Assembly (NCBI GenBank): GCA_002437665.1
Contig: DJQW01000001.1
Location: 297,492 to 361,491 of the forward strand
Source of the DNA: Alphaproteobacteria bacterium UBA6376
Lineage (GTDB): Bacteria; Pseudomonadota; Alphaproteobacteria; Rs-D84
Direction of reading: 5' to 3'
DNA: 64,000 nt
Below are positions 4,039-56,730 of this stretch, piece after piece (positions within the stretch are counted from its first letter, which is position 1; each line of letters starts with the position of its first letter). Both the position numbers and the translations under genes were made by a program. The notes beneath the pieces are model-generated. The model had not been told where the DNA came from. It ran no database searches and saw only the letters and a program-made list of their open reading frames with translations.

Positions 4039-4059
4039 TTATAGGGGATAAGTCCCGCC

Positions 4060-4516
4060 TCGCAGACGCGAAGGGTGGTTGGGGCGCACTCAATTCCCTC
4101 GGCTGTCGCATAGATGCGACATGCCTGCGGGGCAACGTATCTAATTCCAGAAATGTCTGTTCGCGAATGCCTGACCTGAACCAGTTTTCAGATATTTTTC
4201 AAATTCGGCGGCGGCATGACGACCAGAAAAGGCGAAATAATTCACCAATTTCCATGGAGTATATTTTGCTGTATGAAAGGAGTAGCCAGAATTATGTTGT
4301 TTCAAACGGGTGGGCAAATCATCGGTCATGCCAATGTACCGTTGTTCTGGATTTGAAATACTTCTGATCAAATATACGTAAAACATATTTATTAAAAACA
4401 CGCGACACTAATTCGCCACACTTCGTTAAAACTACGTGTGGCACTCCTTCTTGTAACTATGCCGCTTGGGCTTGCCGCCCGAAGCGTCGCAGACGCGAAG
4501 GGTGGTTGGGGCGCAC
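4060..4516 (-). mobile_element. GIY-YIG gene cassette: 397-bp insert (4090..4486) bounded by perfect 30-bp direct repeats 4060..4089 and 4487..4516
   Basis: tcgcagacgcgaagggtggttggggcgcac occurs twice. It comprises the last 14 nt of tRNA-Gln plus 16 nt of downstream flank. Confidence 0.75.
4141..4386 (-). CDS. GIY-YIG nuclease family protein (UPF0213/YhbQ-like)
   Basis: MFYVYLIRS...RYIGMTDDLPTRLKQHN matches the GIY-(x10)-YIG and R..H/N core. Start moved to the internal ATG at 4386. Confidence 0.85.
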   Translation of the reverse strand: MFYVYLIRSISNPEQRYIGMTDDLPTRLKQHNSGYSFHTAKYTPWKLVNYFAFSGRHAAAEFEKYLKTGSGQAFANRHFWN

Positions 4517-14733: not shown

Positions 14734-15492
14734 ATGACACGATTCCGCATAACACTTGAATACGATGGCACAGATTTAATTGGCTGGCAAGAAAACCGCC
14801 AAGGCCCATCTGTGCAGTCAATTTTGCGCGATGCGATTTTTGCATTTTGCGCCGTGCGTCCTGACGTTGTCGCGGCTGGACGTACCGATGCGGGCGTGCA
14901 TGCGTTGGGTATGGTTGCGCATTTTGATTTGGACGGCACATTTGATGCAAATACCGTTATGCGTGCGGTGAATTTTTATTTGACCGATAAACCGGTGGTC
15001 ATATTGTCATGTGACGCGGTGGCGGATGATTTTAACGCGCGCTTTGATTGCACGGCGCGCCATTATCGCTATGTCGTGCTGAACCGTCGCGCCGCGCCGG
15101 TGCTGAACAAGAATCGTGTATGGTGGGTTCCGCGCGAACTGAATATTGATGCAATGCGCGCCGCGGCCACGCGTCTGATTGGACATCATGATTTTACCAG
15201 TTTTCGCGCCACCCAGTGTCAGGCAAAAAGCCCAATAAAAACATTGGACACTTGCAATATTATCACAGATGGCGATAATGTGATTTTTGAATTTTCCGCG
15301 CGTTCATTTTTGCATCATCAGGTACGCAATATGGTCGGCACATTGGTGGAAATTGGTCTGGGCAAACCATACGATATTGATGAAATTTTTGCCGCACGTA
15401 ATCGCAGTGCCGCGGGCCCAACCGCACCGGCGTCTGGTCTGTATTTTATCTCTGCGGATTATTCCACGGACGCATCGCATTCAGATATTTAA
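14734..15492 (+). CDS. truA: tRNA pseudouridine(38-40) synthase
   Basis: YDGTDLIGWQ and catalytic GRTDAGVHA motifs. Confidence 0.92.
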   Translation: MTRFRITLEYDGTDLIGWQENRQGPSVQSILRDAIFAFCAVRPDVVAAGRTDAGVHALGMVAHFDLDGTFDANTVMRAVNFYLTDKPVVILSCDAVADDFNARFDCTARHYRYVVLNRRAAPVLNKNRVWWVPRELNIDAMRAAATRLIGHHDFTSFRATQCQAKSPIKTLDTCNIITDGDNVIFEFSARSFLHHQVRNMVGTLVEIGLGKPYDIDEIFAARNRSAAGPTAPASGLYFISADYSTDASHSDI

Positions 15493-17380
15493 CCCGTCCC
15501 GATGGGTACAACATAATTCCGCCTTCGTGCAAAATTTTGTTCGCGCATTTTGGCGCATCAATATGAAAATACGACACAATATAATCAACACCGTCATCAT
15601 TGCACAGTGAAACAATATTGTTCATCAGTGGCACAAATTTCTGAATGTATACCAATGTGAATTTTTGCGCGCGATACGTGTAAACGCCGCCTGCGTGCAC
15701 ATAGCGTGGATTTGGTGTGTCTGCGTCCTCGCCATTTATTTGCTTCCACGTGTTAAATGCAAAGTAATGATTTGATGCGCGCGATTTATTGAATTTCAGT
15801 TTTCCATTTTCAACAAATCCAACCAATTCATGATCTGGCGTTGCATAGAATACGGGGCGTGGTGTGACAACAACAACTGTCGCGCCAATGATTGCAATTA
15901 TGGTTGCGGTTACGTAATTCATGCGCCGACGTACGCCGCGAATAAACATTAGCGCGCACCCAGCCACAATAAATATAATCAACGCGGCATTCGGCATATT
16001 GGGCATCGGTAAACTGGCATACGGTAAATCCGTAATTACATGCGCAATGCGCAGACCCGCATCATAAATCGTCGCCGCCAGTGCCAATGGCGCATGCCAC
16101 CCCAGCATCGCGGTAAACGTCCCCAAAATAACCAGTGGCATAATCGCAACCGAAAATATCGGCAACAGCACCAGATTGCCAACCAAACTGTACAGCGGAA
16201 ACGCCCCAAAGTGCGCAATTACAAACGGTGCGGTAAATACGGTTGCAACTATGGATGTCAGTGCCGCCGTGCATAAAACTTTCAGAATTTTATTTTCTGG
16301 CATTTTGGGCTTTATTACGCCCCAGAACCAAATCAGCCCAAATATCGCCGCGAATGATAATTGAAATCCGGCCTGCATAACATAGTGCGGATTTATTAAA
16401 ATGATAATCCACATTGCCACGCAAACGTTGCGCAGTGATATCGCGCTGCGTCCAAATACCACGGCGGCAAATATCAGCGTTGTCATCAGAAGCGCGCGCA
16501 TTGTCGCCACATCGCACCCCGACAGGAACAGATATAATATCAGCCCCATCCACGCGCAAATCGTTGCCGGCACCCGCGCGGGCACACGTCGCGTAATTGG
16601 CGCAATCAATCGAAATATGGAATAGAATAAAGCAAACAGCCACCCGCCAACCAATGTCATATGAAATCCACTGATTGACCATACGTGCCCAACGCCGGTC
16701 GATGTCCATATCGGACTGTCGTCGCGCGGAACGGCATTCTTGTACCCCAACACCAAACTGTCGACCAAGAACGAATTTGATTTATTATGAATCGCATCAC
16801 GCACAGTGTTCATATTGTGTGGCGGGTCATGCGATACAATTTCATAATCCTTGATATAGCCCGTTGCTGTCAAATGATTAAAGTATGCCCATCGGGCATA
16901 GTTAAACGCGCCATCGGCATACGGCGCATTTGGACGATACAGATTTACCACCGCGCGAACCGTGTCACCAATGTTTATCGTGCCCGCATCTGATATTGAT
17001 ACCCGTACGATGGGCGCGCCGGTGGTATCAATATACTTGCCATCGATCTGGATGCTCAGGCGGGTTTTGCTGTCGGTGTAATCTATGTTTTTAACCACGC
17101 CAATAATCGTTCGGTCGCGAATGTCACGCGTGATTTGCGGTGTTGCCAGAATGTGGGTGTACGCCGCCGCATACAGCGCGCCAAATGTAAATAACGCCGC
17201 CGCCCGTGCCACAATATGTTTGCGCAAAAACAATTCTGCGATAAATGCCGCGCACAGTGCCCCGATTACAAATTTGCTGGGTTCGGAATCCAACGAAAAA
17301 TACAACGCACAACCCATCGCCACCAAAAATGGCGTCCATAAAAATATGTTCTGGGATTGATTTTCAATAAACCGTTGCAT
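15446..17380 (-). CDS. comEC: ComEC/Rec2-family DNA internalisation channel protein
   Basis: Polytopic membrane protein with a ComEC competence-domain pattern. Start trimmed to the ATG at 17380 to avoid running into pyrG. Confidence 0.8.
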   Translation of the reverse strand: MQRFIENQSQNIFLWTPFLVAMGCALYFSLDSEPSKFVIGALCAAFIAELFLRKHIVARAAALFTFGALYAAAYTHILATPQITRDIRDRTIIGVVKNIDYTDSKTRLSIQIDGKYIDTTGAPIVRVSISDAGTINIGDTVRAVVNLYRPNAPYADGAFNYARWAYFNHLTATGYIKDYEIVSHDPPHNMNTVRDAIHNKSNSFLVDSLVLGYKNAVPRDDSPIWTSTGVGHVWSISGFHMTLVGGWLFALFYSIFRLIAPITRRVPARVPATICAWMGLILYLFLSGCDVATMRALLMTTLIFAAVVFGRSAISLRNVCVAMWIIILINPHYVMQAGFQLSFAAIFGLIWFWGVIKPKMPENKILKVLCTAALTSIVATVFTAPFVIAHFGAFPLYSLVGNLVLLPIFSVAIMPLVILGTFTAMLGWHAPLALAATIYDAGLRIAHVITDLPYASLPMPNMPNAALIIFIVAGCALMFIRGVRRRMNYVTATIIAIIGATVVVVTPRPVFYATPDHELVGFVENGKLKFNKSRASNHYFAFNTWKQINGEDADTPNPRYVHAGGVYTYRAQKFTLVYIQKFVPLMNNIVSLCNDDGVDYIVSYFHIDAPKCANKILHEGGIMLYPSGRVKYLNAMRPWNNPQR

Positions 17381-17459
17381 AACCAAATTATAGGAATTTA
17401 TTTCGTTGCGTCGCAATGATAAATTTCGTATGATAAAAGCCCATAAGGGGGCAAATCTT

Positions 17460-19031
17460 ATGGCGAAATATATATTCATCACCGGTGGTGTTGTATCCAG
17501 TTTAGGCAAGGGCGTCGCAGCGGCAGGTTGCGGCGCTCTTCTTCAATCGCGCGGGTATTCCGTGCATGCACGCAAATTTGATCCGTATCTGAATGTTGAC
17601 CCAGGGACTATGTCGCCGTTCCAGCATGGCGAAGTGTACGTCACCCACGACGGATTCGAAACAGATTTGGATTTGGGTTATTACGAACGATTCTTGGGCG
17701 TGCAACTGTCGCGCAATGATTCTGTGTCGGGTGGCCGTATTTATTGGGACGTGCTGAATGCCGAACGTCGTGGTGACTATTTGGGCGCAACGGTGCAAAT
17801 GATTCCGCACGTCAGTAATCGAATCAAAGAATACATTGCCGCCCCAACAGACACTGATTTTGTCGTATGCGAAATTGGTGGCACGGTCGGCGATATAGAG
17901 GGAAAAATATTCTTGGAATCCATTCGCCAGTTTGCAAATGATGTCGGTCGCCGCAATGTTATGTTTGTGCACCTGACACTGGCCCCGTATTTGGAACAGA
18001 GTGGTGAATTAAAAACCAAGCCAACCCAGATGTCTGTACGCCGCCTGTTGGAAAACGGGATTCAGGCGGACATGCTGATTGTGCGCACGCCGCGTATGTT
18101 GACCGCAGACGAACGCGCAAAAATCGGTATGTTCTGTAATATGCCGGCCAAAAATGTAATCAGTGGTATTGATGTTGATAATATTTACAAGATTCCATTG
18201 GCATACGATGCCCAGAATGTCTTTGACATAATTGCTGAACATTTCGGTTTGGAAAATCGTGCCGGCGATATGACGAAATTTGAACGCATATCAAATTATC
18301 TGGCGGCGGATTTGCCAACCGTGCGAATTGGCATTGTTGGTAAATATTTTGATGTGCCCGATGCATATAAATCATTGAATGCCGCATTGTTCCACGCGGG
18401 GATTCAGAATAATGTACACGTCGCATTAAAGAAAATAAATGCCGAAACATTTTCTCCATCCGATTGCGCGGACGTTGATGGCGTCCTTGTCCCTGGGGGA
18501 TTTGGTGCGCGCGGGGTTGACGGTAAAATCGCCGCCGCACATTATGCCAGAACAACGGGCACGCCATACATGGGAATCTGTCTGGGGATGCAGGTCGCGG
18601 TAATTGAATTTGCGCGCAACGTGCTGGGGATTAAAAATGCCAATTCCACAGAATTTGATGCGAATTGCACGCCCGTCATAAATATTATGCCAGACCACAC
18701 CGGCGACATGGGCGGAACATTGCGTCTGGGCGCATACCCGTGCATGATTACGCCAAATACACGCGTCGCCGAAATCTATGGCACGAATAAAATATCAGAA
18801 CGTCATCGTCACCGCTATGAAATGGACATATCGCGTGAAAAACAATTTGCCGATGCGGGTATGGTTATCTCTGGGCGCAGTCCGGACGGCCGCCTGCCTG
18901 AAATTGTGGAATTGCCAAATCATCCATTCTTTGTCGCGGGGCAATTCCATCCGGAATTTCAGTCCAGTCCATTTACCGGCCACCCAATGTTTAACGCATT
19001 CGTGGCCGCCGCCCAGAAATGTAAAAAATAA
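17460..19031 (+). CDS. pyrG: CTP synthase
   Basis: MAKYIFITGGVVSSLGKG N-terminus. GATase domain GICLGMQ...HRHRYE. Confidence 0.96.
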   Translation: MAKYIFITGGVVSSLGKGVAAAGCGALLQSRGYSVHARKFDPYLNVDPGTMSPFQHGEVYVTHDGFETDLDLGYYERFLGVQLSRNDSVSGGRIYWDVLNAERRGDYLGATVQMIPHVSNRIKEYIAAPTDTDFVVCEIGGTVGDIEGKIFLESIRQFANDVGRRNVMFVHLTLAPYLEQSGELKTKPTQMSVRRLLENGIQADMLIVRTPRMLTADERAKIGMFCNMPAKNVISGIDVDNIYKIPLAYDAQNVFDIIAEHFGLENRAGDMTKFERISNYLAADLPTVRIGIVGKYFDVPDAYKSLNAALFHAGIQNNVHVALKKINAETFSPSDCADVDGVLVPGGFGARGVDGKIAAAHYARTTGTPYMGICLGMQVAVIEFARNVLGIKNANSTEFDANCTPVINIMPDHTGDMGGTLRLGAYPCMITPNTRVAEIYGTNKISERHRHRYEMDISREKQFADAGMVISGRSPDGRLPEIVELPNHPFFVAGQFHPEFQSSPFTGHPMFNAFVAAAQKCKK

Positions 19032-21156: not shown

Positions 21157-22329
21157 ATGAGAAGAATGGCACTATCCATATTTTTCATGTGCATAATGAT
21201 GTGTGACGCATCCCATGCGGCACAGTATCGTGCGGCATTGGTTGCGAATATGGACACGGGTCAGGTTTTAATTCGTGAAAACGCGAACCAGCCGAATTAC
21301 CCCGCATCATTGACCAAGATTATGACGGTATATTTAACGTTTGATGCGCTGGAACACGGTCGTCTGCATTTGGATGATTATCTGATTGTGTCGAATTATG
21401 CGGCGGCGGCATCCCCTGTGAAATTGGGCCTGACTGCGGGCAGCAAGATTACCGTCGAAGATGCGATAAAGGCCGTAACGGTAATGAGTGCGAACGACGT
21501 CGCCCGCGTATTGGCCGAAAATTTGAAGGGCGGCAAAGAAGGTAATTTTGCCGACATGATGACGCGTGTCGCAAATGAAATCGGTCTGAAAAATACGAAT
21601 TTTGAAAACTCGTCCGGCCTGCCAAATGATGACCATATGTCAACCGCGCGCGATATTGCACTGTTGTCCATGGCGGTATATAAACATTTCCCGCAATATT
21701 GGAAATACTTTGGAATCAAGACATGGACATACAACGGCAAAACATATACAAATGGTAATCGATTGCTGGGCACATATGCGGGCTGTGATGGTATGAAAAC
21801 CGGATTTACGAATAAATCGCGCTATTCATTGGTGGCGACGGCAAATCGTGGCGGTACGCATTTGATGGCTGTCGTCTTGGGCGCAGAAAACAAGGATGTC
21901 CGTGCCGCGGTTGCAACGCAACTGTTAAACCGTGGTTTTGAAATGACCAAAAATAATTCCGCGCCGATTGAACGTACAACGCCTGTACAACCGATCGCCA
22001 CGGCGCAGCCGACATATTCTGCACCGACCGCCGCCGCACCAACATTTACGGCGGCATACAACGCGGCAACGGCAAACGCCGCCCCCACATACAACGCGCC
22101 ATCGGTCGCGCGGGGTGGGGCGGGTGTTCAGTTTGGTGCGTTTTCATCACGCGATGCCGCCGCGCAACAGGTTACAAATGTTAAAAATAAACTGGGCGTT
22201 GTTGCCACGATTGAACAGGCGTCAAACGGCATGTTCCGTGTGCGCGCAAATGGCATCACGGACGCCGCTGCAACCGAATTGCGCAATCGCGCAACAAACG
22301 CGGGCATTGACAGTTACGTATTTCATTGA
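21157..22329 (+). CDS. D-alanyl-D-alanine carboxypeptidase (S11, PBP5-like) with C-terminal SPOR domain
   Basis: Motifs SLTK (SxxK), SGL and KTG. C-terminal VQFGAFSSRDAAAQ...FRVRANGI... is a SPOR pattern. Confidence 0.85.
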   Translation: MRRMALSIFFMCIMMCDASHAAQYRAALVANMDTGQVLIRENANQPNYPASLTKIMTVYLTFDALEHGRLHLDDYLIVSNYAAAASPVKLGLTAGSKITVEDAIKAVTVMSANDVARVLAENLKGGKEGNFADMMTRVANEIGLKNTNFENSSGLPNDDHMSTARDIALLSMAVYKHFPQYWKYFGIKTWTYNGKTYTNGNRLLGTYAGCDGMKTGFTNKSRYSLVATANRGGTHLMAVVLGAENKDVRAAVATQLLNRGFEMTKNNSAPIERTTPVQPIATAQPTYSAPTAAAPTFTAAYNAATANAAPTYNAPSVARGGAGVQFGAFSSRDAAAQQVTNVKNKLGVVATIEQASNGMFRVRANGITDAAATELRNRATNAGIDSYVFH

Positions 22330-28005: not shown

Positions 28006-28368
28006 TTAAACACCGTTTAATTGCCGCAGATATTTATACAGTGCATCTGGCGTCTGAATCCGTGCACGGCGCAGGCCACATGCGCGCTTGGTAAATGCGA
28101 CACAGGTTGGCGCGCCCGCGCGTACTAAATCGGGTGGGGGCGTCGCGCCTGCCACGCATACCACCGACCAACCATGCGCACGCAGTGCGCGCAACCCGCG
28201 CGCCGTTATCGGTATTGGAATAATTTTATTTCGGTGTACAAATTGATACATGACCATTGGCGTGCCCGCGTCACCCGATGGCACAATCGGCGCACAGTGT
28301 TTGAAATGACGGCAAACAATGCGTGGCAATAATTTTGATGTTTTTGTACAAAATGCAACAATTATCAT
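28006..28368 (-). CDS. Hypothetical 120-aa protein (possible His...Cys thiol-hydrolase-like layout)
   Basis: RBS context GGGGGAAAACACAA-ATG. No signal peptide. FKHCAPIV...PTCVAFTKRACG pattern. No family recognised with confidence. Confidence 0.45.
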   Translation of the reverse strand: MIIVAFCTKTSKLLPRIVCRHFKHCAPIVPSGDAGTPMVMYQFVHRNKIIPIPITARGLRALRAHGWSVVCVAGATPPPDLVRAGAPTCVAFTKRACGLRRARIQTPDALYKYLRQLNGV

Positions 28369-28394: not shown

Positions 28395-28751
28395 TTATTC
28401 ATGCACAATCCAACCGCGCGCAAATGCCGCCGCGTCCAGTGTTTCCATCGCCCGCCGCCACAGGTCGGCCGCACGATTTTCCGCCCAGATATATTGATGT
28501 GGCGCGCGACGACGATCGCCAAATTCTTTCATCACGCCCAGTTGTTCTGCACTCAGTTTCCCCGACAAATACAGTTTTGTAATCAGCGTTTCCACATCCA
28601 GCAATTCAGCGCAACGACGCGTTGCATGCGATGCGCCATGCATAAATCCGTTTTGCACGGATTTAGAATACAAAAACCAAAACCACATTTGTTCTGCGCT
28701 GTGAAATTTTTCAGGTGCATATTCGTATTGCGTATTTTGTTGTGCTGTCAT
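28395..28751 (-). CDS. Hypothetical 118-aa protein
   Basis: RBS AAGGGAGAAAACAA-ATG. Lies 26 nt upstream of 28006..28368, with a similar RBS context. No family recognised. Confidence 0.5.
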   Translation of the reverse strand: MTAQQNTQYEYAPEKFHSAEQMWFWFLYSKSVQNGFMHGASHATRRCAELLDVETLITKLYLSGKLSAEQLGVMKEFGDRRRAPHQYIWAENRAADLWRRAMETLDAAAFARGWIVHE

Positions 28752-29042: not shown

Positions 29043-31457
29043 TTACAAGATTGGCGGGAAACAATCACCACCCGATGATGGACAGCAATTAAACCCTTGG
29101 TCGCCCATATCGGTAAATACCTCGCCTGTGCAGCAACCATTGGCATCTGGATTCGTGCCATCTTCGCATGTGATAACGGCGGTTGCCTGTTCTTCTTCTT
29201 TCTTGACCGTTTGGAACGGATTCTGAATCGAACCATCGGCATTATATTTCAGACCCAAAACATTTTCGTTGTATGTTTTCTCGTCCATGCTGGCAATACT
29301 GTTTGTATTGTCCTTGTCCTGTTGATTTTTGTACAGCGCATCTTGCTTTGCATTATTGATGGCCTGATAATTCAGCGATTTGCAATATGCCGCAACGGTA
29401 CGATAATCATAGTCCGCCTCATACAAATCTTCTGTTTTACTCTCATTAATGTCCCACAGTCCGGTCTTGTCTTGGGTACAATAGTCCTGCAAATTAAACG
29501 AGCGTACCTGACCAATCCATGAACCATCGGTATAATCGGCAATGCCACTGTGTTTCCAATTCGCGCGCTGGTTACGCGATGCAGCATTCTCATACACCCT
29601 TTTGTTTTTGTCGGTCAAACCTGTTTCGCCCATAACCTGTTGTACAGAACATTTCTTGCTTTTGTCGCTGCCGCATGTCAGCACCAAATCGGTTGGTGGA
29701 AATACGGTAATGCGTGTACCCGCCGCAATGGAAAATGGTGGTACGGTATTGTCCATCATATCGACAATAAACTTTTGTGCGACCTGATTCCATGCGGTGA
29801 TAATTTCATTCTTGGCCAATTCAGATGAACGCACCGTCCCCGATTGAACAACCGTGTTATTGTCCAAATCAATCTGGTTCACAAATTTATCGGTGATTGG
29901 TGCAATCATATTCACCGCCGCCGGTACAACCGCCGTCAGCAATGGCATAACCATCTGTTCGATATAATCGGTGCTGCCATACCCCGGAACACCAACGCGC
30001 CCCTGTGAATCGCCCGAAAACGGACTGGTGTCGTCGCCATTGAAATTAAATTCAACACCATTTGGTAATACAAATTGATACCAGCGAATGTCCATACGGC
30101 CAACGGTTTTGTAAGGCCCCGGAATATCGCCCGTCACATACCCCAACAACAATGTTCCCGTTGGAATAATGACTGTACGTCCATCATCAGAATACACATT
30201 ACGGTCAACCGTCGCGCGCACCGGCAGGCCTTTTTCTTGGCCGTCATACAATTCTGGATCGGCGCGAACCTCTGATACGATTGTGGCTGGAATTGGTTTA
30301 TACTGGCGCAACACAAACGTGCGGTCAAACGGATCGGACGAGAATATGGCATCCTGACCACTTGTTCCAACAATCACATCGTCTTGTTTTTCTTTCAATG
30401 AAATCCCGCCGCGAAATGCATTGTGAATTGCTTCTGCACCGGTATAGTCGGGCGTAGGCATCGCGGTCGATGCATCAGACGAAATCAGTTCTTCGGTGGA
30501 CAACTGGTACGCGCGGTTTGCAACCTTTTTCACCGGATTTGACAACTGGGGCAGGTTACCCCCTGAAATCGTTGTATACCCGATGTGTTCGGCATCTGTA
30601 CCAATCTTTTTACCGTTGTTTTTGATGTCGGTAATCAGACCACTGTCGGGGTTATAGATACCCGTCGGATTGTTGCATTTTTTATCAGAAAATGGGTGGA
30701 AATAATACGCACCGTGCTCTGGACGAATCCATCCAATCTGGTTGCCGGTTGAATCATACCCCGGAAATGCAAATTCAGAACACACAACGCTGGGCGTCGG
30801 GTCGGGCTCTGCATTTGCAAACGGATCAGACGGTGCGATTGTTTCAATATCTTTTTTGATTTCGGTCTGAACCGGTTTTACAGGTTCAATTTCTGGCTCT
30901 GGTTCTGGTTTCGTTTCGACAATTTTTACAGGCTCTGGTTTCGCCACCGGTGCTGGTGCGGTCGCGCCCATAACCAAAACAATCTTGTCTGTCTTTTTCA
31001 TGCCGTCTGGCTGCGTTGCACCACGCCAATCAATAAACAGCGATGTTGTTTCCGTGTCCATTGCGGTTGTCGGCACATATTCCAATACCAATGTGCATGG
31101 AATCTGTGCATCAATATAGCCCATACCACGACACGTATCGGTTGATGTAAAACCGGCAATATCTTTGTGACGACGTACGTCCATAATTTTTACAGGTGCG
31201 GTTGCAGAAACCTTTAACGTTGTCTTTTGCTTTTCACCAACCTTGGTATTGGCCCAGTTGATGGATTCTGTCGCCGGCGTAATAATCAGGTTGATTGGCG
31301 CATCTTCGGTCTGTATATCTTTGGATTTGCCGCGCCCACCAATCAGCATGGTCATTAAAATCAGCACCACAACAAACGCCACCCCCAGCAGCAACCACTG
31401 AACCGACTTTGGCGTAGATTTGCGCATTTGTGAAATTTGTTGTTTGATACCACTCAT
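29043..31457 (-). CDS. VirB10/TrbI-family protein, enlarged (804 aa)
   Basis: N-terminal TM (aa 20-40) and a Pro/Glu-rich linker (aa 165-200). The core RATVDRNVYSDDGRTVIIPTGTLLLGYV...RMDIRWYQFVLPNGVEFNF...D..G..G parallels Agrobacterium VirB10 RDVYSDNGKVVLLEKGSKVVGEY...RIFVLWTRAKTPNGVVVNL. A 211-aa C-terminal extension follows. Confidence 0.75.
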   Translation of the reverse strand: MSGIKQQISQMRKSTPKSVQWLLLGVAFVVVLILMTMLIGGRGKSKDIQTEDAPINLIITPATESINWANTKVGEKQKTTLKVSATAPVKIMDVRRHKDIAGFTSTDTCRGMGYIDAQIPCTLVLEYVPTTAMDTETTSLFIDWRGATQPDGMKKTDKIVLVMGATAPAPVAKPEPVKIVETKPEPEPEIEPVKPVQTEIKKDIETIAPSDPFANAEPDPTPSVVCSEFAFPGYDSTGNQIGWIRPEHGAYYFHPFSDKKCNNPTGIYNPDSGLITDIKNNGKKIGTDAEHIGYTTISGGNLPQLSNPVKKVANRAYQLSTEELISSDASTAMPTPDYTGAEAIHNAFRGGISLKEKQDDVIVGTSGQDAIFSSDPFDRTFVLRQYKPIPATIVSEVRADPELYDGQEKGLPVRATVDRNVYSDDGRTVIIPTGTLLLGYVTGDIPGPYKTVGRMDIRWYQFVLPNGVEFNFNGDDTSPFSGDSQGRVGVPGYGSTDYIEQMVMPLLTAVVPAAVNMIAPITDKFVNQIDLDNNTVVQSGTVRSSELAKNEIITAWNQVAQKFIVDMMDNTVPPFSIAAGTRITVFPPTDLVLTCGSDKSKKCSVQQVMGETGLTDKNKRVYENAASRNQRANWKHSGIADYTDGSWIGQVRSFNLQDYCTQDKTGLWDINESKTEDLYEADYDYRTVAAYCKSLNYQAINNAKQDALYKNQQDKDNTNSIASMDEKTYNENVLGLKYNADGSIQNPFQTVKKEEEQATAVITCEDGTNPDANGCCTGEVFTDMGDQGFNCCPSSGGDCFPPIL

Positions 31458-31481: not shown

Positions 31482-33029
31482 TTATTGAATACGAACAACA
31501 CTGCAACTGGAACCACTGAATTTCAACAACTGGTCGCATAGTTTTTGCGCCGTCTCGATATCAGACATTGGCCCAATGCGCAGACGATACAGACGTGCCG
31601 TATGCGATGTTGAACCCAAATCACCAACACCTTGTTCGTCAACCGCAAAGAATACCTTGTCCTTGTACGGGGTCAACAAACCAACGCCATCATCGCCGCT
31701 GAATTTCGCCAACAGACCCGTCCAATAATCATCCAATGCCTTGACCGATGTGTCGGATTTCAGTTCGACCGCCACGCCCGATTGGTTGCTGGTAATGAGT
31801 GGAATATTCGTCTGGGGCAGGTACGAACCCGCGGTCAAACGTTCGGTTGGCATCATTGTCACGCCCGATGTGCCCGATGACACAACCGGCATTGTAACAT
31901 TTGTTGTAACCGTGCCCGCCGGCATATAATAACCAGACGTTGCAACTGAATTAGTGTTCGAAACATATGTCGGCGAGCCAGTATAGTTCAGCCCCGCCGC
32001 ATTGATTGCATTCTGATCCATTGTGTACGCAATGGTGTTCAGTGATTGACCCGACATCATGGACTGCGCAACGTTTGCCTCTGCCAATGCCATGACGGAC
32101 GCCGTATCGGCAATCAAGAATGGCTTTTCACGCTTTTTAATGCAAACGATACGTTGACCACTGCGCAATACCATGTCGCCAACGGCCTCTACAATCAACA
32201 GACGACCATCTTCGCCATCCGTGCGGAAACTGACAGGGGATTCGCCGCCTTCGACCAGCAACGACACAACCGGACGTTGGGTCATTGCAATAACCTTGTC
32301 GCCAAAGTCAATGTATGTGAATATGCGGTCGCGCCATACGCGTTCTGGTGCAATTACGTAATCGTCAGGATTTGGAACAAAGATGTCCAAATCAAAACGA
32401 AATTCCGATGGGTCAATCTTCATAGATTTAATCCAACCGTAATCTTCGCCATCAACGCCAACGGTACTGCTGGTGGCGGCGGCCTTTTTGAAAATTGACG
32501 ATGCACCACCCGTTGTGGTGGTTGCCGCGGTTGCGTTTGGCAATGTCGCATTGCCGTCCAAAACAACGTCAACCTGTGAATACGTAATCTCGCTGGAATT
32601 TGATGGTTCACTGCGCAGATAGAAAATATACTTGTTACCAGATTTGCCCGTCACAATCAAATTAGTGTCCGAACCCTGATTGCTGGCGGTTGGGCTGATA
32701 ACCATTGTGCGGTCACCCTGATTGGCCTCAATCGTGAACAGACCCTGATTGCCAATAACGGCATCGGCAATTTGTTCGCCGTTCGGCAGGGACACCATCG
32801 TTACCATACCGTTGCGTAATTTGATTGGCAACACACTGCCTGATTCCCATGACAGTTGTGCGTACCCCGGTTTAATACTGCCCGCAGCCATATTTGCGGT
32901 TGGGTTGTCCCATGCATCTTGGACACCGTAATTGATACCAGTGGCCGCACCATGCGCAGATGCACACAATGCCATAACGCAGAAAACAGAAATGTTTAAT
33001 TTAATCGCAGTTCTAAAACTCATGCCCAT
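31482..33029 (-). CDS. VirB9/TrbG/CagX-family protein with C-terminal SPOR-like domain
   Basis: Signal peptide. N-domain is VTMVSLPNGEQIADAVIGNQGLFTI...TNLIVTGKSGNKYIFYL. C-domain is APERVWRDRIFTYIDFGD...RPVVSLLVEGGESPVSFRTDG..LIVEAVGDMVLRSGQRIVCI. The tail ...YWTGLLAKF...LYRLRIGPMSDIETAQKLCDQLLKFSGSSCSVV is SPOR-like. Confidence 0.72.
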   Translation of the reverse strand: MGMSFRTAIKLNISVFCVMALCASAHGAATGINYGVQDAWDNPTANMAAGSIKPGYAQLSWESGSVLPIKLRNGMVTMVSLPNGEQIADAVIGNQGLFTIEANQGDRTMVISPTASNQGSDTNLIVTGKSGNKYIFYLRSEPSNSSEITYSQVDVVLDGNATLPNATAATTTTGGASSIFKKAAATSSTVGVDGEDYGWIKSMKIDPSEFRFDLDIFVPNPDDYVIAPERVWRDRIFTYIDFGDKVIAMTQRPVVSLLVEGGESPVSFRTDGEDGRLLIVEAVGDMVLRSGQRIVCIKKREKPFLIADTASVMALAEANVAQSMMSGQSLNTIAYTMDQNAINAAGLNYTGSPTYVSNTNSVATSGYYMPAGTVTTNVTMPVVSSGTSGVTMMPTERLTAGSYLPQTNIPLITSNQSGVAVELKSDTSVKALDDYWTGLLAKFSGDDGVGLLTPYKDKVFFAVDEQGVGDLGSTSHTARLYRLRIGPMSDIETAQKLCDQLLKFSGSSCSVVRIQ

Positions 33030-33056: not shown

Positions 33057-33740
33057 TTAATTACCGCTGGCCAGATAGCCCGTATCCAGTGGATCGCCAT
33101 TACCAGATTCAACGGTGTATTCGGCAACGCGAATCCCCAACGGGTTGTCCAGACGATCCGACCATTTTAATGTCGCATTATCGTCCATCTCTAATTTCAC
33201 TATGATTGTATAATCTTTTTTATCGGTCTGTCCACCACTATCTTCACAGAAATACTTAAAATTTACAGCCCATGTTTTATAGTCCGATGTTCTGGGTTGA
33301 ACCGCACCGTTTTCAAATTCCACACTGCAACTAAATTCAAAGTCCGGCGTGTTGTTCATCAGTGCCGTCCACATGTTGGTCTGGGTAAATGCGGCATACA
33401 CCGCCGGTGTTGACCAAGTATGCACAACGCCATCTTCGGTATTATTCCATTTGCGCAGCATCACGCGCCCATCAGGCACAATTTCATTACGTGCCTTGAT
33501 ATATTCGCGAATAAACGCGCGTGTATACCATTTGAAATTGTCGTCGGTCGGTGGCAATTCAGACAGCGTGATTTCCAGATTTTCACGCGGCTGGGTCATC
33601 AAAAAGAACACCTGTGGCCGATTTAACGGAAACATTTTGTACAGGGTAATGCCCAGCACCCCCAGCACGACAATCGCGCCGGCGAACACAAACGTCATCA
33701 ATCTGGACAGCAAAATTGGCGGTTCTATGCGGTCTTGCAA
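33057..33740 (-). CDS. VirB8/TrbF-family protein
   Basis: Short N-terminus plus one TM and an NTF2-like periplasmic part (FIREYIKARNEI...; C-terminal NPLGIRVAEYTVE vs the VirB8 NPLGFQV motif). TTG start is preceded by GGAGAGGA. Confidence 0.7.
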   Translation of the reverse strand: MQDRIEPPILLSRLMTFVFAGAIVVLGVLGITLYKMFPLNRPQVFFLMTQPRENLEITLSELPPTDDNFKWYTRAFIREYIKARNEIVPDGRVMLRKWNNTEDGVVHTWSTPAVYAAFTQTNMWTALMNNTPDFEFSCSVEFENGAVQPRTSDYKTWAVNFKYFCEDSGGQTDKKDYTIIVKLEMDDNATLKWSDRLDNPLGIRVAEYTVESGNGDPLDTGYLASGN

Positions 33741-54004: not shown

Positions 54005-55477
54005 ATGAAGTCAGGAATTATACCATTTTTAGGTGGCGTTTTCGCGTCTGTTGCGGCATATGCCGCGACCGAGGGTGCGCCGTCATACTATCAGACCGCG
54101 TCTGCGCCCAACGCGAACCAGATTGGTTACAGCCAGTATCAATCCCAAGGGTACACGAAATATGTTGGTCAGTCGGGCAATAAACAAATTGTCGGCAGTC
54201 GTTCTTATTCATACCAAGTACCACGCCAGACCGCCGAAAAACCAAAGTATTCCGGCACAATCACCGCAAATGGTATCGCGATTGTGGACGAGCCGGCAAC
54301 GACACTGACGGCGAAATATACACGTCGTTTTGCGGACTTTGAATTTGAAACGGGCGTCAATTCCATATTGGAATGGGACGACATGGTGTTCAATGAAATC
54401 GGTGTCGCGGCCCAGCATAATTTCAGTTTGCGCAACTTTGACATGTTTGCGTTTGCGGAATATTCACATGGTTCGTTGTCACATGGCGGGCTGTCCATGG
54501 ACTATGACCTGAAACCATACGATGAATCCCGCCCGACCGAAGGGATATTTACCATTTCCGTGGGTGATCAATCGGGTCGCACGGATCATTTCCGTTTTGG
54601 TATTGGCGCGCATCATATTTGGGACATTGGCGGGTGGAAACTGTCGCCATCATTTGGTTATGAAATTTTCAAGCATAACTTGGAAATGTCCAATCACTAT
54701 TACCCGAACCCAGGGGTATATCTGCCCCTGATGACGGACAAGGGTGACTATGTCTATGGCGATGCCCAAGGGAACTATTATTCCCGCCCTCAGGATTTTG
54801 ATGCCCCCGACGATTGGTATCAGGTATGCATGTCGCCCGAAGATTTGAAGGTGGTCAGTGCCGCTGCCAGCAATATTGATTTGGGTACGTCATTTACAAC
54901 AATCGACTATGACGCGGCGTGGGGTGAAACCCCATGGGGCGTTGCAGCGGGCGAGTGTGTAATTATCGGTGGCGATGGCCCAATTTTGGTGTCGGGCACA
55001 ACGCATATCTATAACACAACATGGTCTGGATTCTATGTCGGACTCGAGGCGGAAAAGCAAATGACCCTGACGGACAAGTTGCGTTTTTATGTCCAGTTGG
55101 GTATGCCCAAATATTCGTCAGAGGGGATTTGGCCAAATCGTGACGATTGGCAACAGAACCCCAGTTTCTTGGACGAGGGGTCAAACGGCGCATATTCATA
55201 CACCGCCGAAATGGAATACAATATGAAATTGTCCGACCGTGTCCAGTTGGCATTAAAGGTTGATACAAATTGTTTCCACGTTGGCAAAATCGGTGGCGAA
55301 TTGTACGTTGCATCGTATTCCCAATTCTTGATTGAAAACGGTCAATATGTTCTGGACGATAACGGCAACCCGATTATTGAAACCGTTCCGGCGCATACTG
55401 AAAAAATCAGTGACCAGTTAAAGCACGCAACATGGCAATCATTTGGGTTGCATCTGGGTATTAAATACGCATTCTAA
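54005..55477 (+). CDS. Outer-membrane beta-barrel protein (unknown family)
   Basis: Signal peptide, alternating beta-strand pattern, and a C-terminal ...LHLGIKYAF aromatic terminus. Confidence 0.6.
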   Translation: MKSGIIPFLGGVFASVAAYAATEGAPSYYQTASAPNANQIGYSQYQSQGYTKYVGQSGNKQIVGSRSYSYQVPRQTAEKPKYSGTITANGIAIVDEPATTLTAKYTRRFADFEFETGVNSILEWDDMVFNEIGVAAQHNFSLRNFDMFAFAEYSHGSLSHGGLSMDYDLKPYDESRPTEGIFTISVGDQSGRTDHFRFGIGAHHIWDIGGWKLSPSFGYEIFKHNLEMSNHYYPNPGVYLPLMTDKGDYVYGDAQGNYYSRPQDFDAPDDWYQVCMSPEDLKVVSAAASNIDLGTSFTTIDYDAAWGETPWGVAAGECVIIGGDGPILVSGTTHIYNTTWSGFYVGLEAEKQMTLTDKLRFYVQLGMPKYSSEGIWPNRDDWQQNPSFLDEGSNGAYSYTAEMEYNMKLSDRVQLALKVDTNCFHVGKIGGELYVASYSQFLIENGQYVLDDNGNPIIETVPAHTEKISDQLKHATWQSFGLHLGIKYAF

Positions 55478-55491
55478 GGGGTATATGTCTG

Positions 55492-56730
55492 ATGACATGG
55501 GACAATCGTTTTGCATGCATCACGTGTGCGGCGTTGCTGTGCACCGCTGCGGCGCGCGCCGATGTTGCACCGACGTCGATTGCGCCTGCGCCCGCAGCCG
55601 CATCCGTGGTTGCCGCGTCGCCAGTTGTGGTTGCCGCGCCTGTGCCTGTCGCCACCACGGTTGCCACCCCCGCACCCACCACCCCCATTGTTATTGTTGA
55701 AACCGCGCCTGCGCCCGACACGCCACCAATCGCCGAACGTGGTGCGTTTGATATGGCCCGCTGGGAAAGTGTGCTGGACACGGTTCGTACGCGCGCGACG
55801 GCGGAAAAGATTTCCAAGAAAACCATAGATACCACACTGAAAAATCCGGCGTTTATTCCAAATATTGTAAAGCGCGACCAGAATCAGTCAGAGTTCAAAT
55901 TGACGCTGGACGGGTACTTGAACCGTACCGTCAATCCAACGCGTATCGCGTCTGGTCGCAAAATGGCGAATAAATACCCAACATTGTTAAAACGTGTGCA
56001 TGCGCGCTATGGCGTTCAACCACATGTAATTTTGGCATTCTGGGGTATGGAATCAAACTATGGCGCGCGTATGGCGGATCACCCCCTGCGTGATGCATTC
56101 GTTACATTGATATACGAGGGGCGTCGTCAAACATTCTTTACCAATCAACTGATTGCGTTGATGAAAATCGCCGATAAAAATGGCGATGATATCAGTGACT
56201 ATGGTGGCAGTTGGGCCGGCGCAATGGGACATTTCCAGTTTATACCGACAACACTGGCGGCATATGGCGTTGATGGCAATGGCGATGGCAAGATTGACAT
56301 CAGTGGCAGTATTGGTGACGCAATGATGTCCGCGGGCAATTACCTGAACCGATTGGGCTGGAATGAAAACGAACGCATTGTGCGTCGCGTTGTCTTGCCG
56401 GCGGACTTCGATGTGTCACTGTTGGACGGCAAAACGAAAAAGACATTATCCGAATGGATGGCATTGGGGGCAACGTTGCCCGATGGACGTGCGTTGCCGG
56501 TGACTGATATGATGGCGGGCATGGTTGCGGACACCGTCGCAATCAATGATGCGCGTATGAATGCGGCAATTGCGCCAACCGACCCAAATGCGGTTGATAC
56601 GGATGTTGCGCCAATGCCGGCAATAACCGCGTATTTGACATACCCGAATTTCTACCGTATCAAGAAATGGAACAATTCAAATTGGTACGCAATCGCGATT
56701 GCAGAATTGGCGGACGCACTGCATCAGTAA
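55492..56730 (+). CDS. Lytic murein transglycosylase (MltB-like) with Ala/Pro-rich N-terminal linker
   Basis: FWGMESNYG (catalytic Glu), GHFQFIP and YNNSNWY-type motifs. Confidence 0.82.
   Translation: MTWDNRFACITCAALLCTAAARADVAPTSIAPAPAAASVVAASPVVVAAPVPVATTVATPAPTTPIVIVETAPAPDTPPIAERGAFDMARWESVLDTVRTRATAEKISKKTIDTTLKNPAFIPNIVKRDQNQSEFKLTLDGYLNRTVNPTRIASGRKMANKYPTLLKRVHARYGVQPHVILAFWGMESNYGARMADHPLRDAFVTLIYEGRRQTFFTNQLIALMKIADKNGDDISDYGGSWAGAMGHFQFIPTTLAAYGVDGNGDGKIDISGSIGDAMMSAGNYLNRLGWNENERIVRRVVLPADFDVSLLDGKTKKTLSEWMALGATLPDGRALPVTDMMAGMVADTVAINDARMNAAIAPTDPNAVDTDVAPMPAITAYLTYPNFYRIKKWNNSNWYAIAIAELADALHQ

What the first reader, a model, noticed from the sequence alone, without database searches (positions are those of the whole stretch)
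31485..32129. VirB9-like protein fused to a Ser/Thr/Asn-rich linker and a C-terminal SPOR-like peptidoglycan-binding domain
Seen: after the VirB9 C-domain (ending about aa 300) come about 115 low-complexity residues. These are followed by ...VAVELKSDTSVKALDDYWTGLLAKF...ARLYRLRIGPMSDIETAQKLCDQLLKFSGSSCSVVRIQ. Established: the pattern A..W..L...(~30 aa)...YRLR.GP....A..LC..L...G..C.VV is the alphaproteobacterial flavour of the SPOR domain, which binds denuded glycan strands at division septa. The PBP5-like protein at 21157..22329 carries a classical SPOR for comparison. I am not aware of VirB9 proteins with SPOR domains. Inference: the outer-membrane core would be tethered to peptidoglycan, possibly at septal or polar sites, perhaps replacing a VirB7-type lipoprotein anchor.
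Basis: partly seen in the sequence, partly recalled or inferred. Interest (0 to 1): 0.7.

Follow-up and report, generated by a model that had tools for sequence, protein, structure and literature searches.

The report
VirB9 secretion protein with SPOR-like tail
A core outer-membrane protein of a type IV secretion machine in a tiny-genome gut bacterium carries a cell-wall-binding (SPOR-type) domain on a flexible tether; this probably pins the machine to the cell wall, and it is a family-wide feature that does not seem to have been described.

Summary
ORF 31482..33029 (-), 515 aa, is a VirB9 (Pfam CagX, E 1.6e-21). Its two beta-sandwich domains match solved VirB9, TrwF and TraO structures. It lies between virB8 and virB10 on the chromosome of a Candidatus Enterousia (order Rs-D84) gut bacterium. 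After the VirB9 C-domain come a conserved 36-aa segment, a variable disordered linker of about 60 aa, a conserved 21-aa peptide and a 98-aa domain. That domain passes the Pfam SPOR threshold and folds beta-alpha-beta-beta-alpha-beta. Its best PDB fold matches are the RlpA and DedD SPOR domains.

The fusion is not a one-off:
- at least 120 protein clusters and all 80 genome loci kept carry it;
- 30 of the 145 listed VirB9 representatives (50% identity clusters) carry it;
- a more divergent form sits on plasmids of cultured Sphingosinicella and Erythrobacter, inside full T4SS operons.

The key SPOR glutamine is replaced by Glu or Asp almost everywhere in the family, so the ligand may differ. The Arg pair is kept, and a Cys pair is invariant. 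Relatives keep a VirB7-like lipoprotein, so the "VirB7 replacement" idea is not supported. No paper found mentions it.

Verdict: a real, conserved new variant of a known system. Peptidoglycan tethering is plausible but untested.

The parts
31482..33029 (-). Whole gene: VirB9 with SPOR-like tail, 515 aa plus TAA stop. An AAGGAA Shine-Dalgarno-like motif lies just upstream.
   Evidence: Pfam CagX + SPOR
32946..33029 (-). Aa 1-28: N-terminal signal peptide (hydrophobic core, ...SAHG/AA). No canonical lipobox.
   Evidence: Read from the sequence. Predicted helix 13-20 with low pLDDT. Inference, no signal-peptide predictor was run.
32550..32924 (-). Aa 36-160: VirB9 N-terminal beta-sandwich (I-layer domain).
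   Evidence: pLDDT about 90. Foldseek match to the R388 TrwF/VirB9 N-domain 7o3t_B, TM 0.77.
32430..32549 (-). Aa 161-200: inter-domain linker. Thr/Ala/Gly-rich, variable, disordered.
   Evidence: pLDDT below 50 for 165-196; 68% identity with indels.
32130..32429 (-). Aa 201-300: VirB9 C-terminal beta-sandwich (O-layer, VirB7-binding domain). Contains Cys296, invariant in the 35-sequence alignment A5.
   Evidence: 98% conserved in the genus. Foldseek matches 2ofq (TM 0.80), 7o3j_B, 2n01, 3jqo_B. C296 invariant.
32022..32129 (-). Aa 301-336: conserved segment (EKPFLIADTASVMALAEANVAQSMMSGQSLNTIAYT). Low-confidence helix, function unknown.
   Evidence: 94% identity in 118 Enterousia homologues. 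Helix 309-325 predicted, but pLDDT below 50. Not conserved in distant relatives.
31842..32021 (-). Aa 337-396: variable, Thr/Ser/Gly/Asn/Pro/Tyr-rich disordered linker.
   Evidence: About 50% identity, indels at several positions; pLDDT below 50; composition.
31779..31841 (-). Aa 397-417: conserved pre-SPOR peptide (RLTAGSYLPQTNIPLITSNQS).
   Evidence: Nearly invariant in alignment A1; 87% identity for aa 405-417; recognisable in distant relatives.
31485..31778 (-). Aa 418-515: SPOR-family domain. Strand 418-426, helix 429-443, strand 459-465, disordered insertion about 466-478, strand 479-488, helix 491-505, strand 510-514.
   Evidence: Pfam SPOR above its cut-off. AF2 topology. Foldseek top three hits are RlpA and DedD SPOR.
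31764..31766 (-). Glu422 codon (GAA): the position of the conserved SPOR glutamine (RlpA Q270 / FtsN Q251).
   Evidence: Position from the secondary-structure register and family alignment. Pfam aligns Asp365 of relative P0213 to about profile position 8. Census: E 175/175 in Enterousia-like sequences; E20, D7, Q1, V1 in representatives.
31578..31586 (-). Arg482-Leu483-Arg484 on strand 3: equivalents of RlpA R309 and R311 (basic patch).
   Evidence: Aligned through the conserved ...YRLRIGP / ...R-V-R-V-G-P motif (Pfam match; PMC6895207). R482 185/185 and R484 185/185 in Enterousia-like sequences.
31503..31538 (-). Span from the Cys498 codon (31536..31538, helix 2) to the Cys509 codon (31503..31505, strand 4): an invariant cysteine pair, probably a disulfide.
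   Evidence: Invariant in all 218 sequences with a residue at these positions (one fragment is gapped). The disulfide itself is inference.
33057..33740 (-). virB8, 227 aa, immediately upstream.
   Evidence: Pfam VirB8, E 6.1e-10; present in 80/80 Enterousia loci.
29043..31457 (-). virB10/trbI, 804 aa, immediately downstream. Has long N- and C-terminal extensions.
   Evidence: Pfam TrbI aa 384-593, NCBIfam VirB10/ComB10 domain; present in 80/80 loci.

Best explanation
The gene encodes the VirB9 subunit of the outer-membrane core complex of a P-type (VirB-like) type IV secretion system (T4SS). Its C-terminus is extended by a linker of about 115 residues, largely disordered, that ends in a SPOR-family domain.

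Shown:
- the domain architecture;
- the fold;
- the virB8-virB9-virB10 context;
- conservation across a whole VirB9 subfamily, including complete T4SS operons.

Inferred:
- VirB9 is present in about 14 copies per core complex in solved systems. The machine would therefore hang a ring of about 14 tethered SPOR domains from just under the outer membrane into the periplasm.
- There they would bind peptidoglycan glycan strands and pin the core complex to the wall with high avidity.
- Characterised SPOR domains read peptide-free glycans made at division sites. The tail may therefore also bias assembly to the septum or new pole. This would be 'pre-installation', as shown for the AMIN domains of the PilQ secretin.
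- The family-wide Gln-to-Glu/Asp change in the binding site suggests that the preferred glycan differs from the canonical denuded strand.
For: - VirB9 identity: Pfam CagX 77.5 bits. Foldseek hits to X. citri VirB9, R388 TrwF, pKM101 TraO, DotH and CagX. Flanked by VirB8 and VirB10.
- SPOR identity: Pfam SPOR above the gathering score, and 11 of 15 diverse full-length members hit SPOR. The fold is beta-alpha-beta-beta-alpha-beta, with pLDDT 80-93 in the full-length run apart from the insertion loop. The top three PDB fold matches are SPOR domains, with TM 0.71 to RlpA SPOR.
- Binding site: the RlpA R309/R311 equivalents are conserved.
- Selection: the tail is 84% conserved while the linker is 50%.
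- Spread: at least 120 clusters at 90% identity are full length. All 80 kept genome loci match through residue 515. 30 of 145 representatives at 50% identity carry the tail, and they cluster together in a VirB9-domain tree.
- T4SS context of relatives: L083 has VirB2-VirB3-VirB4-...-VirB8-VirB9(SPOR)-VirB10. L081 adds VirB11. The Sphingosinicella plasmid has MobA, a VirB4-sized gene, VirB8-11 and VirD4.
- Architecture parallel: FtsN, DamX and DedD also carry a C-terminal SPOR on a long flexible linker (established knowledge).
- Functional precedents: PilQ AMIN domains recruit the type IVa pilus machine to septal and polar peptidoglycan (PMC5285504, PMC10653833). DotK and Dis1 are OmpA-like peptidoglycan-binding subunits of the Dot/Icm outer-membrane core (PMC9302130).
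- No VirB1-type transglycosylase was seen in the T4SS stretches examined. This fits pre-installation, but it is an argument from absence.
Against: - No binding or localisation data exist.
- The Gln whose side-chain amide hydrogen-bonds the MurNAc lactyl carboxylate and the GlcNAc acetyl group in RlpA (PMC6895207) is Glu422 here. It is Glu or Asp in 204 of 206 family members with a residue there. A carboxylate cannot donate those bonds and would repel the lactyl carboxylate.
- The RlpA F274 (CH/pi) equivalent is Asp426.
- Pfam aligns only the second half of the domain.
- Profile searches of PDB sequences and a comparison with the genome's own classical SPOR gave nothing significant.
- The rest of the T4SS was not found in this window. 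I could not link it to an Enterousia genome.
Confidence: 0.55

Rival explanations
1. The tail is a SPOR-derived domain that no longer binds glycan. It would instead act as a protein-protein or ring-building module decorating the periplasmic face of the core complex. This is comparable to the N0 domain of Xanthomonas VirB7, or to the alpha/beta ring-building motifs of secretins and type III secretion basal bodies.
For: - The canonical Gln and the aromatic residue of the SPOR binding site are replaced (E422, D426).
- The family has its own signature: Trp436, the Cys498/Cys509 pair and a conserved pre-SPOR peptide.
- Below the three SPOR hits, Foldseek lists generic ferredoxin-like folds with similar scores.
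- Divergent members fall below the Pfam SPOR threshold.
Against: - The Arg pair that forms the glycan-carboxylate pocket is kept.
- A disordered tether of about 115 residues fits reaching a distant layer better than packing against the complex.
- Most SPOR-glycan contacts are main-chain contacts of strand 1, which do not depend on side chains (PMC6895207).
Confidence: 0.22
2. The tail is displayed outside the cell on its Ser/Thr-rich stalk. It would bind the cell wall of a partner or prey bacterium, making it a contact adhesin for a host-dependent organism with a reduced genome.
For: - Enterousia genomes are under 1 Mb, and the organisms are proposed to be obligate symbionts or parasites that take metabolites from other cells (PMC12306168).
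- The long low-complexity stalk and the conserved cysteine pair suit an oxidising extracytoplasmic location.
- VirB9 surface exposure has been reported for some systems (my recollection, not checked here).
Against: - In solved core complexes the VirB9 C-domain lies under the inner leaflet of the outer membrane (structures matched; placement from established knowledge).
- The same tail occurs on ordinary conjugative-type plasmid T4SSs of free-living Sphingomonadales.
- No transmembrane or beta-barrel segment follows the C-domain.
Confidence: 0.06
3. The SPOR tail replaces the VirB7 lipoprotein as the anchor of the outer layer.
For: No VirB7-like small lipoprotein lies next to virB8 in the window or in the 80 Enterousia loci.
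Against: - Distant VirB9-SPOR loci L081, L082 and L083 all encode a conserved small lipoprotein (lipobox AGC, SPCAC motif) upstream of virB8, directly adjacent in L081 and L083.
- VirB9 Cys296, a candidate partner for a VirB7 disulfide, is invariant.
- VirB7 anchors to the outer membrane, not to peptidoglycan, so the two roles differ.
- The T4SS genes are scattered in this lineage, so a virB7 could be elsewhere.
Confidence: 0.1
4. The fusion is an artefact of assembly, a frameshift or read-through joining two genes.
For: None.
Against: - The single uninterrupted ORF recurs in at least 120 independent protein clusters from many assemblies.
- It recurs in all 80 species-representative genomes kept.
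- It recurs in finished plasmids of cultured strains.
Confidence: 0.01

Closest known systems
Canonical VirB9/TrbG proteins of P-type T4SS core complexes (pKM101 TraO, R388 TrwF, X. citri VirB9, A. tumefaciens VirB9)
   Same: - Signal peptide, then N- and C-terminal beta-sandwich domains (Foldseek).
- Pfam CagX match.
- Gene order virB8-virB9-virB10.
- A conserved Cys in the C-domain.
   Different: - The solved chains matched are 95-258 residues long and contain no peptidoglycan-binding module. This protein adds about 215 residues.
- It scores far below the NCBIfam VirB9 equivalog cut-off (52.5 against 217.7), so it is a divergent subfamily.
SPOR-domain proteins FtsN, DamX, DedD and RlpA (Pfam PF05036)
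   Same: - C-terminal beta-alpha-beta-beta-alpha-beta domain at the end of a long flexible linker.
- Pfam match above the threshold.
- Best structural matches are RlpA and DedD SPOR.
- The Arg pair equivalent to RlpA R309/R311 is kept.
   Different: - It is anchored to an outer-membrane secretion complex, not to an inner-membrane divisome protein or a lytic transglycosylase.
- The conserved Gln is Glu/Asp, and F274 is Asp or a variable residue.
- The Cys pair joins helix 2 and strand 4, whereas in FtsN it joins strand 1 and strand 4 (C252-C312).
- There is a 13-residue insertion between strands 2 and 3.
AMIN domains of the type IVa pilus secretin PilQ
   Same: A peptidoglycan-binding module fused to the outer-membrane channel subunit of an envelope-spanning machine. 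It recruits the machine to septal and polar peptidoglycan, giving pre-installation at new poles (PMC5285504, PMC10653833). This is the best functional analogue for the proposed mechanism.
   Different: Different fold (AMIN, not SPOR), N-terminal rather than C-terminal, and a different machine (secretin, not VirB7/9/10). For PilQ the function is shown experimentally; here it is inferred.
DotK and Dis1, OmpA-like subunits of the Legionella Dot/Icm outer-membrane core
   Same: Peptidoglycan-binding domains that are structural parts of a T4SS outer-membrane complex (PMC9302130).
   Different: They are separate auxiliary proteins, of the OmpA-like family, in a type IVB system. Here the module is SPOR-type and covalently fused to VirB9 in a type IVA-like system.
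Xanthomonas citri VirB7 with C-terminal N0 domain
   Same: An extra alpha/beta domain added to a core-complex subunit (structure 6gyb, matched; the N0 domain is from my own knowledge).
   Different: The added domain is on VirB7, is ordered in the complex and makes protein-protein contacts. No peptidoglycan role is known.

Membership tests
VirB9/TrbG/CagX (T4SS outer-membrane core subunit) | Pfam PF03524 match above the gathering score | tested here: met
   77.5 bits against 34.2, aa 58-299
VirB9/TrbG/CagX (T4SS outer-membrane core subunit) | Two beta-sandwich domains superposable on solved VirB9 N- and C-domains | tested here: met
   Foldseek: 6gyb_B E 1.9e-16; 7o3t_B TM 0.77 (N-domain); 2ofq TM 0.80 and 7o3j_B (C-domain); pLDDT about 90
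VirB9/TrbG/CagX (T4SS outer-membrane core subunit) | Encoded between virB8 and virB10 | tested here: met
   VirB8 at 33057..33740 and TrbI/VirB10 at 29043..31457, same strand; conserved in 80/80 loci
VirB9/TrbG/CagX (T4SS outer-membrane core subunit) | NCBIfam TIGR02781 'P-type VirB9' equivalog cut-off | tested here: not met
   52.5 bits against 217.7. It is a divergent subfamily, not an equivalog of the model's seed set.
VirB9/TrbG/CagX (T4SS outer-membrane core subunit) | The rest of a T4SS (VirB2-6, VirB4 ATPase, VirB11/VirD4) in the same genome | tested here: inconclusive
   - None in the 64-kb window.
- Present in operons of distant tail-bearing relatives.
- Split VirB2-3-4 clusters exist in gut alphaproteobacterial contigs, but I could not tie them to Enterousia.
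SPOR domain (PF05036) | Pfam match above the gathering score | tested here: met
   25.1 bits (whole protein) and 28.2 bits (tail) against 21. Only profile positions 37-76 of 76 align. 11 of 15 diverse family members match.
SPOR domain (PF05036) | RNP-like beta-alpha-beta-beta-alpha-beta fold with a four-stranded sheet | tested here: met
   AF2 elements E418-426, H429-443, E459-465, E479-488, H491-505, E510-514. Top Foldseek hits are 6i09_A, 6i05 and 6ztg.
SPOR domain (PF05036) | Conserved Gln in strand 1 (RlpA Q270, FtsN Q251, DamX Q351) that contacts MurNAc and GlcNAc | tested here: not met
   Glu422 here. In the family: E 195, D 9, Q 1, V 1. The role of the Gln is from PMC6895207. The same genome's PBP5-SPOR keeps 'VQFGAF'.
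SPOR domain (PF05036) | Basic patch on the sheet that binds the MurNAc lactyl carboxylate (RlpA R302/R309/R311; FtsN R285) | tested here: met
   R482 and R484 in the YRLRIGP motif. 185/185 in Enterousia-like sequences; R21/H6 and R25 among 30 representatives.
SPOR domain (PF05036) | Binds denuded (peptide-free) glycan strands and localises to the septum | not testable with these tools
   Needs sacculus pull-down, ITC and localisation experiments.

The most novel reading that the evidence does not exclude
The acid-for-glutamine SPOR variant is a cell-wall reader dedicated to T4SSs, with a new ligand specificity. Candidate ligands are glycan ends or N-deacetylated, positively charged sugars left by wall remodelling, rather than the canonical denuded strand. 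It would position or pre-install the secretion machine at a defined wall site, without a VirB1-type transglycosylase. In Enterousia that machine would be the organism's interface with the partner cells it depends on.
Probability: 0.15. Interest if true: 0.7.

Novelty: new variant of a known kind. Interest (0 to 1): 0.45.

Why it matters
- How type IVA secretion machines are fixed in, and positioned relative to, the peptidoglycan layer is poorly understood. Known wall-related parts are lytic transglycosylases (VirB1) and, in Dot/Icm, separate OmpA-like subunits.
- A SPOR-type module fused to the roughly 14-copy VirB9 subunit would be a built-in wall anchor. It may also be a septum or pole targeting signal, analogous to the AMIN domains of PilQ.
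- The feature is family-wide and occurs on plasmids of cultured Sphingomonadales, so it can be tested genetically.
- In Candidatus Enterousia (genomes under 1 Mb, proposed obligate partner-dependent gut bacteria; PMC12306168) the VirB8-9-10 genes are highly conserved. This points to a T4SS as part of the organism's lifestyle, which the published genome analysis I read does not mention.
- The consistent Gln-to-Glu/Asp change also gives a natural test of SPOR ligand specificity.

Tried and rejected
- **PDB sequence searches.** Profile searches of PDB sequences with the tail alignments (A1, A3) found only chance hits such as antibody chains, and no SPOR entry. A whole-protein phmmer search of PDB found nothing. 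The fold comparison was needed.
- **Comparison with the genome's own SPOR.** hhalign of the tail profile against the classical SPOR of the PBP5-like protein gave no significant match (E 0.08, probability 0.7%).
- **Undercounting of the tail.** My first tail HMM and a Pfam scan of 83 'tail-less' representatives both undercounted. Reading their C-termini and an iterated HMM showed that 8 of them carry a more divergent tail that Pfam misses.
- **tblastn against plasmids.** The whole protein matched only aa 36-300, which at first suggested no plasmid had the fusion. Translating the best hits showed the tail in Sphingosinicella and Erythrobacter.
- **Looking for the rest of the T4SS in Enterousia.** A VirB4 search found many gut alphaproteobacterial VirB2-3-4 clusters. 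No contig, sample or sequence overlap tied them to Enterousia VirB9 contigs, and GC content was uninformative because Enterousia loci span 37-55%.
- **Search for VirB7.** tblastn and motif searches found the SPCAC lipoprotein only in L081-L083, and not in the window, the 80 Enterousia loci or L087-L090.
- **Duncan et al. 2013 (FtsN mutagenesis).** The paper is not held, so I could not check what a Q251E substitution does.
- **Artefact or gene-fusion error.** Rejected on recurrence.
Full report
**What is there.** The finding's coordinates (31485..32129, minus strand) are the last 215 codons of a 515-codon ORF, 31482..33029.
- Pfam places a CagX/VirB9 domain at aa 58-299 (77.5 bits, cut-off 34.2).
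- Pfam places a SPOR domain at aa 474-513 (25.1 bits for the whole protein, 28.2 bits for the tail alone, cut-off 21). The SPOR match covers only the second half of the profile.
- The gene lies between a VirB8 gene (33057..33740) and a VirB10/TrbI gene (29043..31457, 804 aa) on the same strand.
- The quoted peptides are present verbatim.

**The organism and its genome.** The window is chromosomal. tRNA-Trp, the ORFs in the position of the secE-nusG-ribosomal-protein genes and two ORFs of rpoB/rpoC size (assigned by position and size, not tested) follow on one side. yidC (by position and sequence, not tested) and lspA (Pfam Peptidase_A8) lie on the other.
- A scan of species-representative genomes found a 99% identical copy in 'uncultured Rickettsiales bacterium UMGS860'.
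- It also found 74-98% identical copies in 79 further representative genomes. Those with informative labels are mostly Candidatus Enterousia or gut alphaproteobacterial MAGs from humans, horses, ruminants, chickens and mice.
- Enterousia (order Rs-D84) has genomes under 1 Mb and is proposed to be an obligate symbiont or parasite (PMC12306168).

**Anatomy of the protein.** The full-length AlphaFold2 model (35-sequence alignment) shows:
- A signal peptide.
- Two confident beta-sandwiches (aa about 50-160 and 210-300, pLDDT about 90). Foldseek matches them to X. citri VirB9, R388 TrwF, pKM101 TraO, DotH and CagX.
- A stretch (aa 304-415) with pLDDT below 50.
- A confident C-terminal domain (pLDDT 80-93 outside one loop) with the order strand 418-426, helix 429-443, strand 459-465, strand 479-488, helix 491-505, strand 510-514.

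A separate model of aa 401-515 (pLDDT 70) has the same topology. Its three best PDB matches are the RlpA SPOR domain with and without bound denuded glycan (6i09_A, TM 0.71; 6i05) and the DedD SPOR domain (6ztg). Generic ferredoxin-like folds follow.

The 'linker' is not uniform. Across 118 Enterousia homologues:
- aa 301-336 are 94% identical to the window;
- aa 337-404 are about 50% identical, with indels;
- the SPOR domain is 84% identical, similar to the VirB9 N-domain at 81%.

A conserved peptide (RLTAGSYLPQTNIPLITSNQS, aa 397-417) precedes the domain.

**Is it a canonical SPOR?** Partly. Alcorlo et al. (PMC6895207) show the following for RlpA:
- The Q270 side chain, together with R302, R309 and R311, contacts the MurNAc lactyl carboxylate and the GlcNAc acetyl group.
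- F274 stacks on the sugar.
- Most other contacts are main-chain contacts of strand 1.
- Only the Gln is highly conserved among SPOR domains of known structure.

In the VirB9 tail:
- The YRLRIGP motif keeps the R309/R311 equivalents (R482, R484).
- The Gln position is Glu422 and the F274 position is Asp426.

A census of the 219 aligned family sequences other than the window's own gives:
- Glu in all 175 Enterousia-like sequences that cover the position.
- E20, D7, Q1, V1 among 30 representatives at 50% identity.
- Asp in the two plasmid copies.

The register rests on three things: the distance to helix 1, the family alignment, and a sub-threshold but full-length Pfam alignment of relative P0213 that puts its Asp365 at about profile position 8.

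Two cysteines (C498 in helix 2, C509 in strand 4) are invariant wherever those positions are covered. The same genome's PBP5-like carboxypeptidase carries a classical 'VQFGAF' SPOR. That architecture is known from A. tumefaciens DacA (PMC10838918). The tail is therefore a SPOR-family domain with its own signature and possibly a changed ligand.

**How widespread is it?**
- The word-indexed protein search returned at least 120 clusters at 90% identity. They are 75-97% identical to the query, 486-537 aa long, and cover 93-100% of it. Fourteen already carry precomputed PF05036+PF03524.
- Fragments are named 'SPOR domain-containing protein, partial' by NCBI.
- The exhaustive search of representatives at 50% identity found 481 VirB9 relatives.
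- Among the 145 listed representatives new to this search, an iterated HMM of the tail finds it in 30. That is 25 of the 100 that are at least 330 aa long.
- In a neighbour-joining tree of the VirB9 domain, the tail-bearing sequences fall in one clade of 17.
- Pfam alone misses the more divergent ones.
- The two best plasmid matches are Sphingosinicella sp. BN140058 p1 and an Erythrobacter aureus plasmid. Both carry a divergent copy (...YMVDLGAG...VRLRVGPF...VCKAM...GRSCSVV). tblastn and Pfam had not flagged it. They are the only two of 72,556 plasmids found at tblastn sensitivity.

**Context in relatives.**
- L083 (36% identical VirB9) has TrbC/VirB2, a 96-aa gene in the VirB3 position (no family hit on record), VirB4, four unassigned genes, a small lipoprotein, VirB8, VirB9-SPOR and VirB10.
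- L081 has a lipoprotein, VirB8, VirB9-SPOR, a 1507-aa VirB10 and VirB11.
- The Sphingosinicella plasmid has MobA/MobL, an 806-aa gene of VirB4 size (annotated hypothetical), VirB8-11 and a VirD4-type coupling protein.
- So the tail belongs to otherwise ordinary T4SSs.
- The small lipoprotein (lipobox AGC, SPCAC motif) is conserved in L081, L082 and L083. This argues against the idea that SPOR replaces VirB7.
- In Enterousia and two closer relatives (L084, L085/86) only virB8-10, or virB9-10, sit together among housekeeping genes.
- No other T4SS gene lies in the window.
- Gut alphaproteobacterial contigs carry split VirB2-3-4 clusters, consistent with a scattered system. I could not prove that they are Enterousia.

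**Mechanism.** The best-supported reading is that each VirB9 in the outer-membrane core hangs a SPOR-type domain on a flexible tether of about 115 residues. The domains would bind glycan strands of the sacculus, anchoring the machine and possibly positioning it.
- The architecture mirrors FtsN-type proteins (SPOR at the end of a long linker).
- The logic mirrors PilQ, whose AMIN domains recruit the pilus machine to septal and polar peptidoglycan.
- It also mirrors Dot/Icm, whose core contains the OmpA-like subunits DotK and Dis1.
- The absence of a recognisable VirB1 in the operons examined fits pre-installation at the septum, but this is weak evidence.

Against it:
- There is no experimental evidence.
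- The Gln-to-Glu/Asp change removes a hydrogen-bond donor and adds negative charge next to the carboxylate pocket.

The main rival is that the domain has become a protein-interaction or ring-forming module. A low-probability alternative is external display as an adhesin.

**Novelty and score.**
- No paper in the library contains both 'VirB9' and 'SPOR domain'.
- Papers that mention SPOR together with type IV secretion, or VirB9 together with peptidoglycan-binding domains, do not appear from their titles and abstracts to describe this fusion; I read only three of them.
- The Enterousia genome paper does not mention secretion.
- Pipelines partly annotate the architecture, so the databases 'know' it.
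- This is a new variant of a known kind: an undescribed wall-binding extension of a well-known T4SS subunit. It is family-wide and testable.
- Interest is moderate (0.45). It is a neat and conserved architecture with a clear hypothesis, but peptidoglycan-binding modules on envelope machines are a familiar theme and nothing about function is shown yet.

Noticed in passing
window 29043..31457 (-): The VirB10 is unusually long at 804 aa. It has a 380-aa N-terminal region with a Pro/Glu/Lys-rich repeat stretch. After the TrbI domain it has a C-terminal extension of about 210 aa that ends in a Cys-rich motif (CEDGTNPDANGCCTGEVFTDMGDQGFNCCPSSGGDCFPPIL). Both extensions are conserved in 77-80 of 80 Enterousia loci. 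VirB10 partners of tail-bearing VirB9s range from 549 to 1507 aa.
   Followed up: partly
window 32022..32129 (-), aa 301-336 of VirB9: A segment right after the VirB9 C-domain is 94% conserved within the genus, more than the SPOR domain. It is not conserved in distant relatives and is predicted only as a low-confidence helix. Its function is unknown.
   Followed up: partly
window 28395..28751 (-) and 28006..28368 (-): Two small ORFs (118 and 120 aa) lie just downstream of virB10 and have no Pfam match. They are conserved in 71 and 68 of 80 Enterousia loci (69% and 46% median identity). They may belong to the same operon.
   Followed up: partly
L081 9028..9219; L083 about 9128..9286; L082 about 4038..4154: A small lipoprotein family (lipobox AGC, conserved SPCAC[LI] motif) lies upstream of virB8 in distant VirB9-SPOR loci, directly adjacent in L081 and L083. 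It is a likely VirB7 analogue. Its cysteines could pair with the invariant VirB9 Cys296. It was not found in the window or in the Enterousia loci.
   Followed up: partly
window 15446..17509 (-); L081 18865..21015: A ComEC competence-channel gene lies about 12 kb from the virB8-10 cluster in the window, and about 1.7 kb from the VirB8-11 cluster in a distant relative. The VirB10 also gives a weak ComB10-domain hit. It is unclear whether the T4SS is linked to DNA uptake.
   Followed up: no
L087-L090 (gut metagenome contigs): VirB2-VirB3-VirB4 clusters without VirB8-10 sit next to a type IVb (Tcp-like) pilus cluster (TcpQ, secretin, PilO, two T2SS-type genes). The contigs are gut alphaproteobacterial and about 51% GC. 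I could not determine whether they are from Enterousia.
   Followed up: partly
window 21157..22329 (+): The D,D-carboxypeptidase (Peptidase_S11) has a classical C-terminal SPOR ('VQFGAF'). The same architecture is known as A. tumefaciens DacA (Atu1505), so it is ordinary. It is useful as the in-genome contrast to the VirB9 tail.
   Followed up: yes
window 54005..55477 (+) and 55492..56730 (+): A Pom-family (Protochlamydia outer-membrane protein) porin-like gene sits next to an MltB-type lytic transglycosylase (SLT_2). The Pom family is mostly known from chlamydial symbionts.
   Followed up: no
L107 8848..10140; L108 2354..3652; L109 2234..3886: RefSeq names the plasmid VirB9s of cultured Sphingosinicella and Erythrobacter only 'TrbG/VirB9 family'. 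They carry a divergent version of the same C-terminal domain, which Pfam SPOR does not detect. The Microvirga VirB9 (550 aa) has a still more divergent C-terminus with a similar Cys pair; it did not pass the family HMM.
   Followed up: partly
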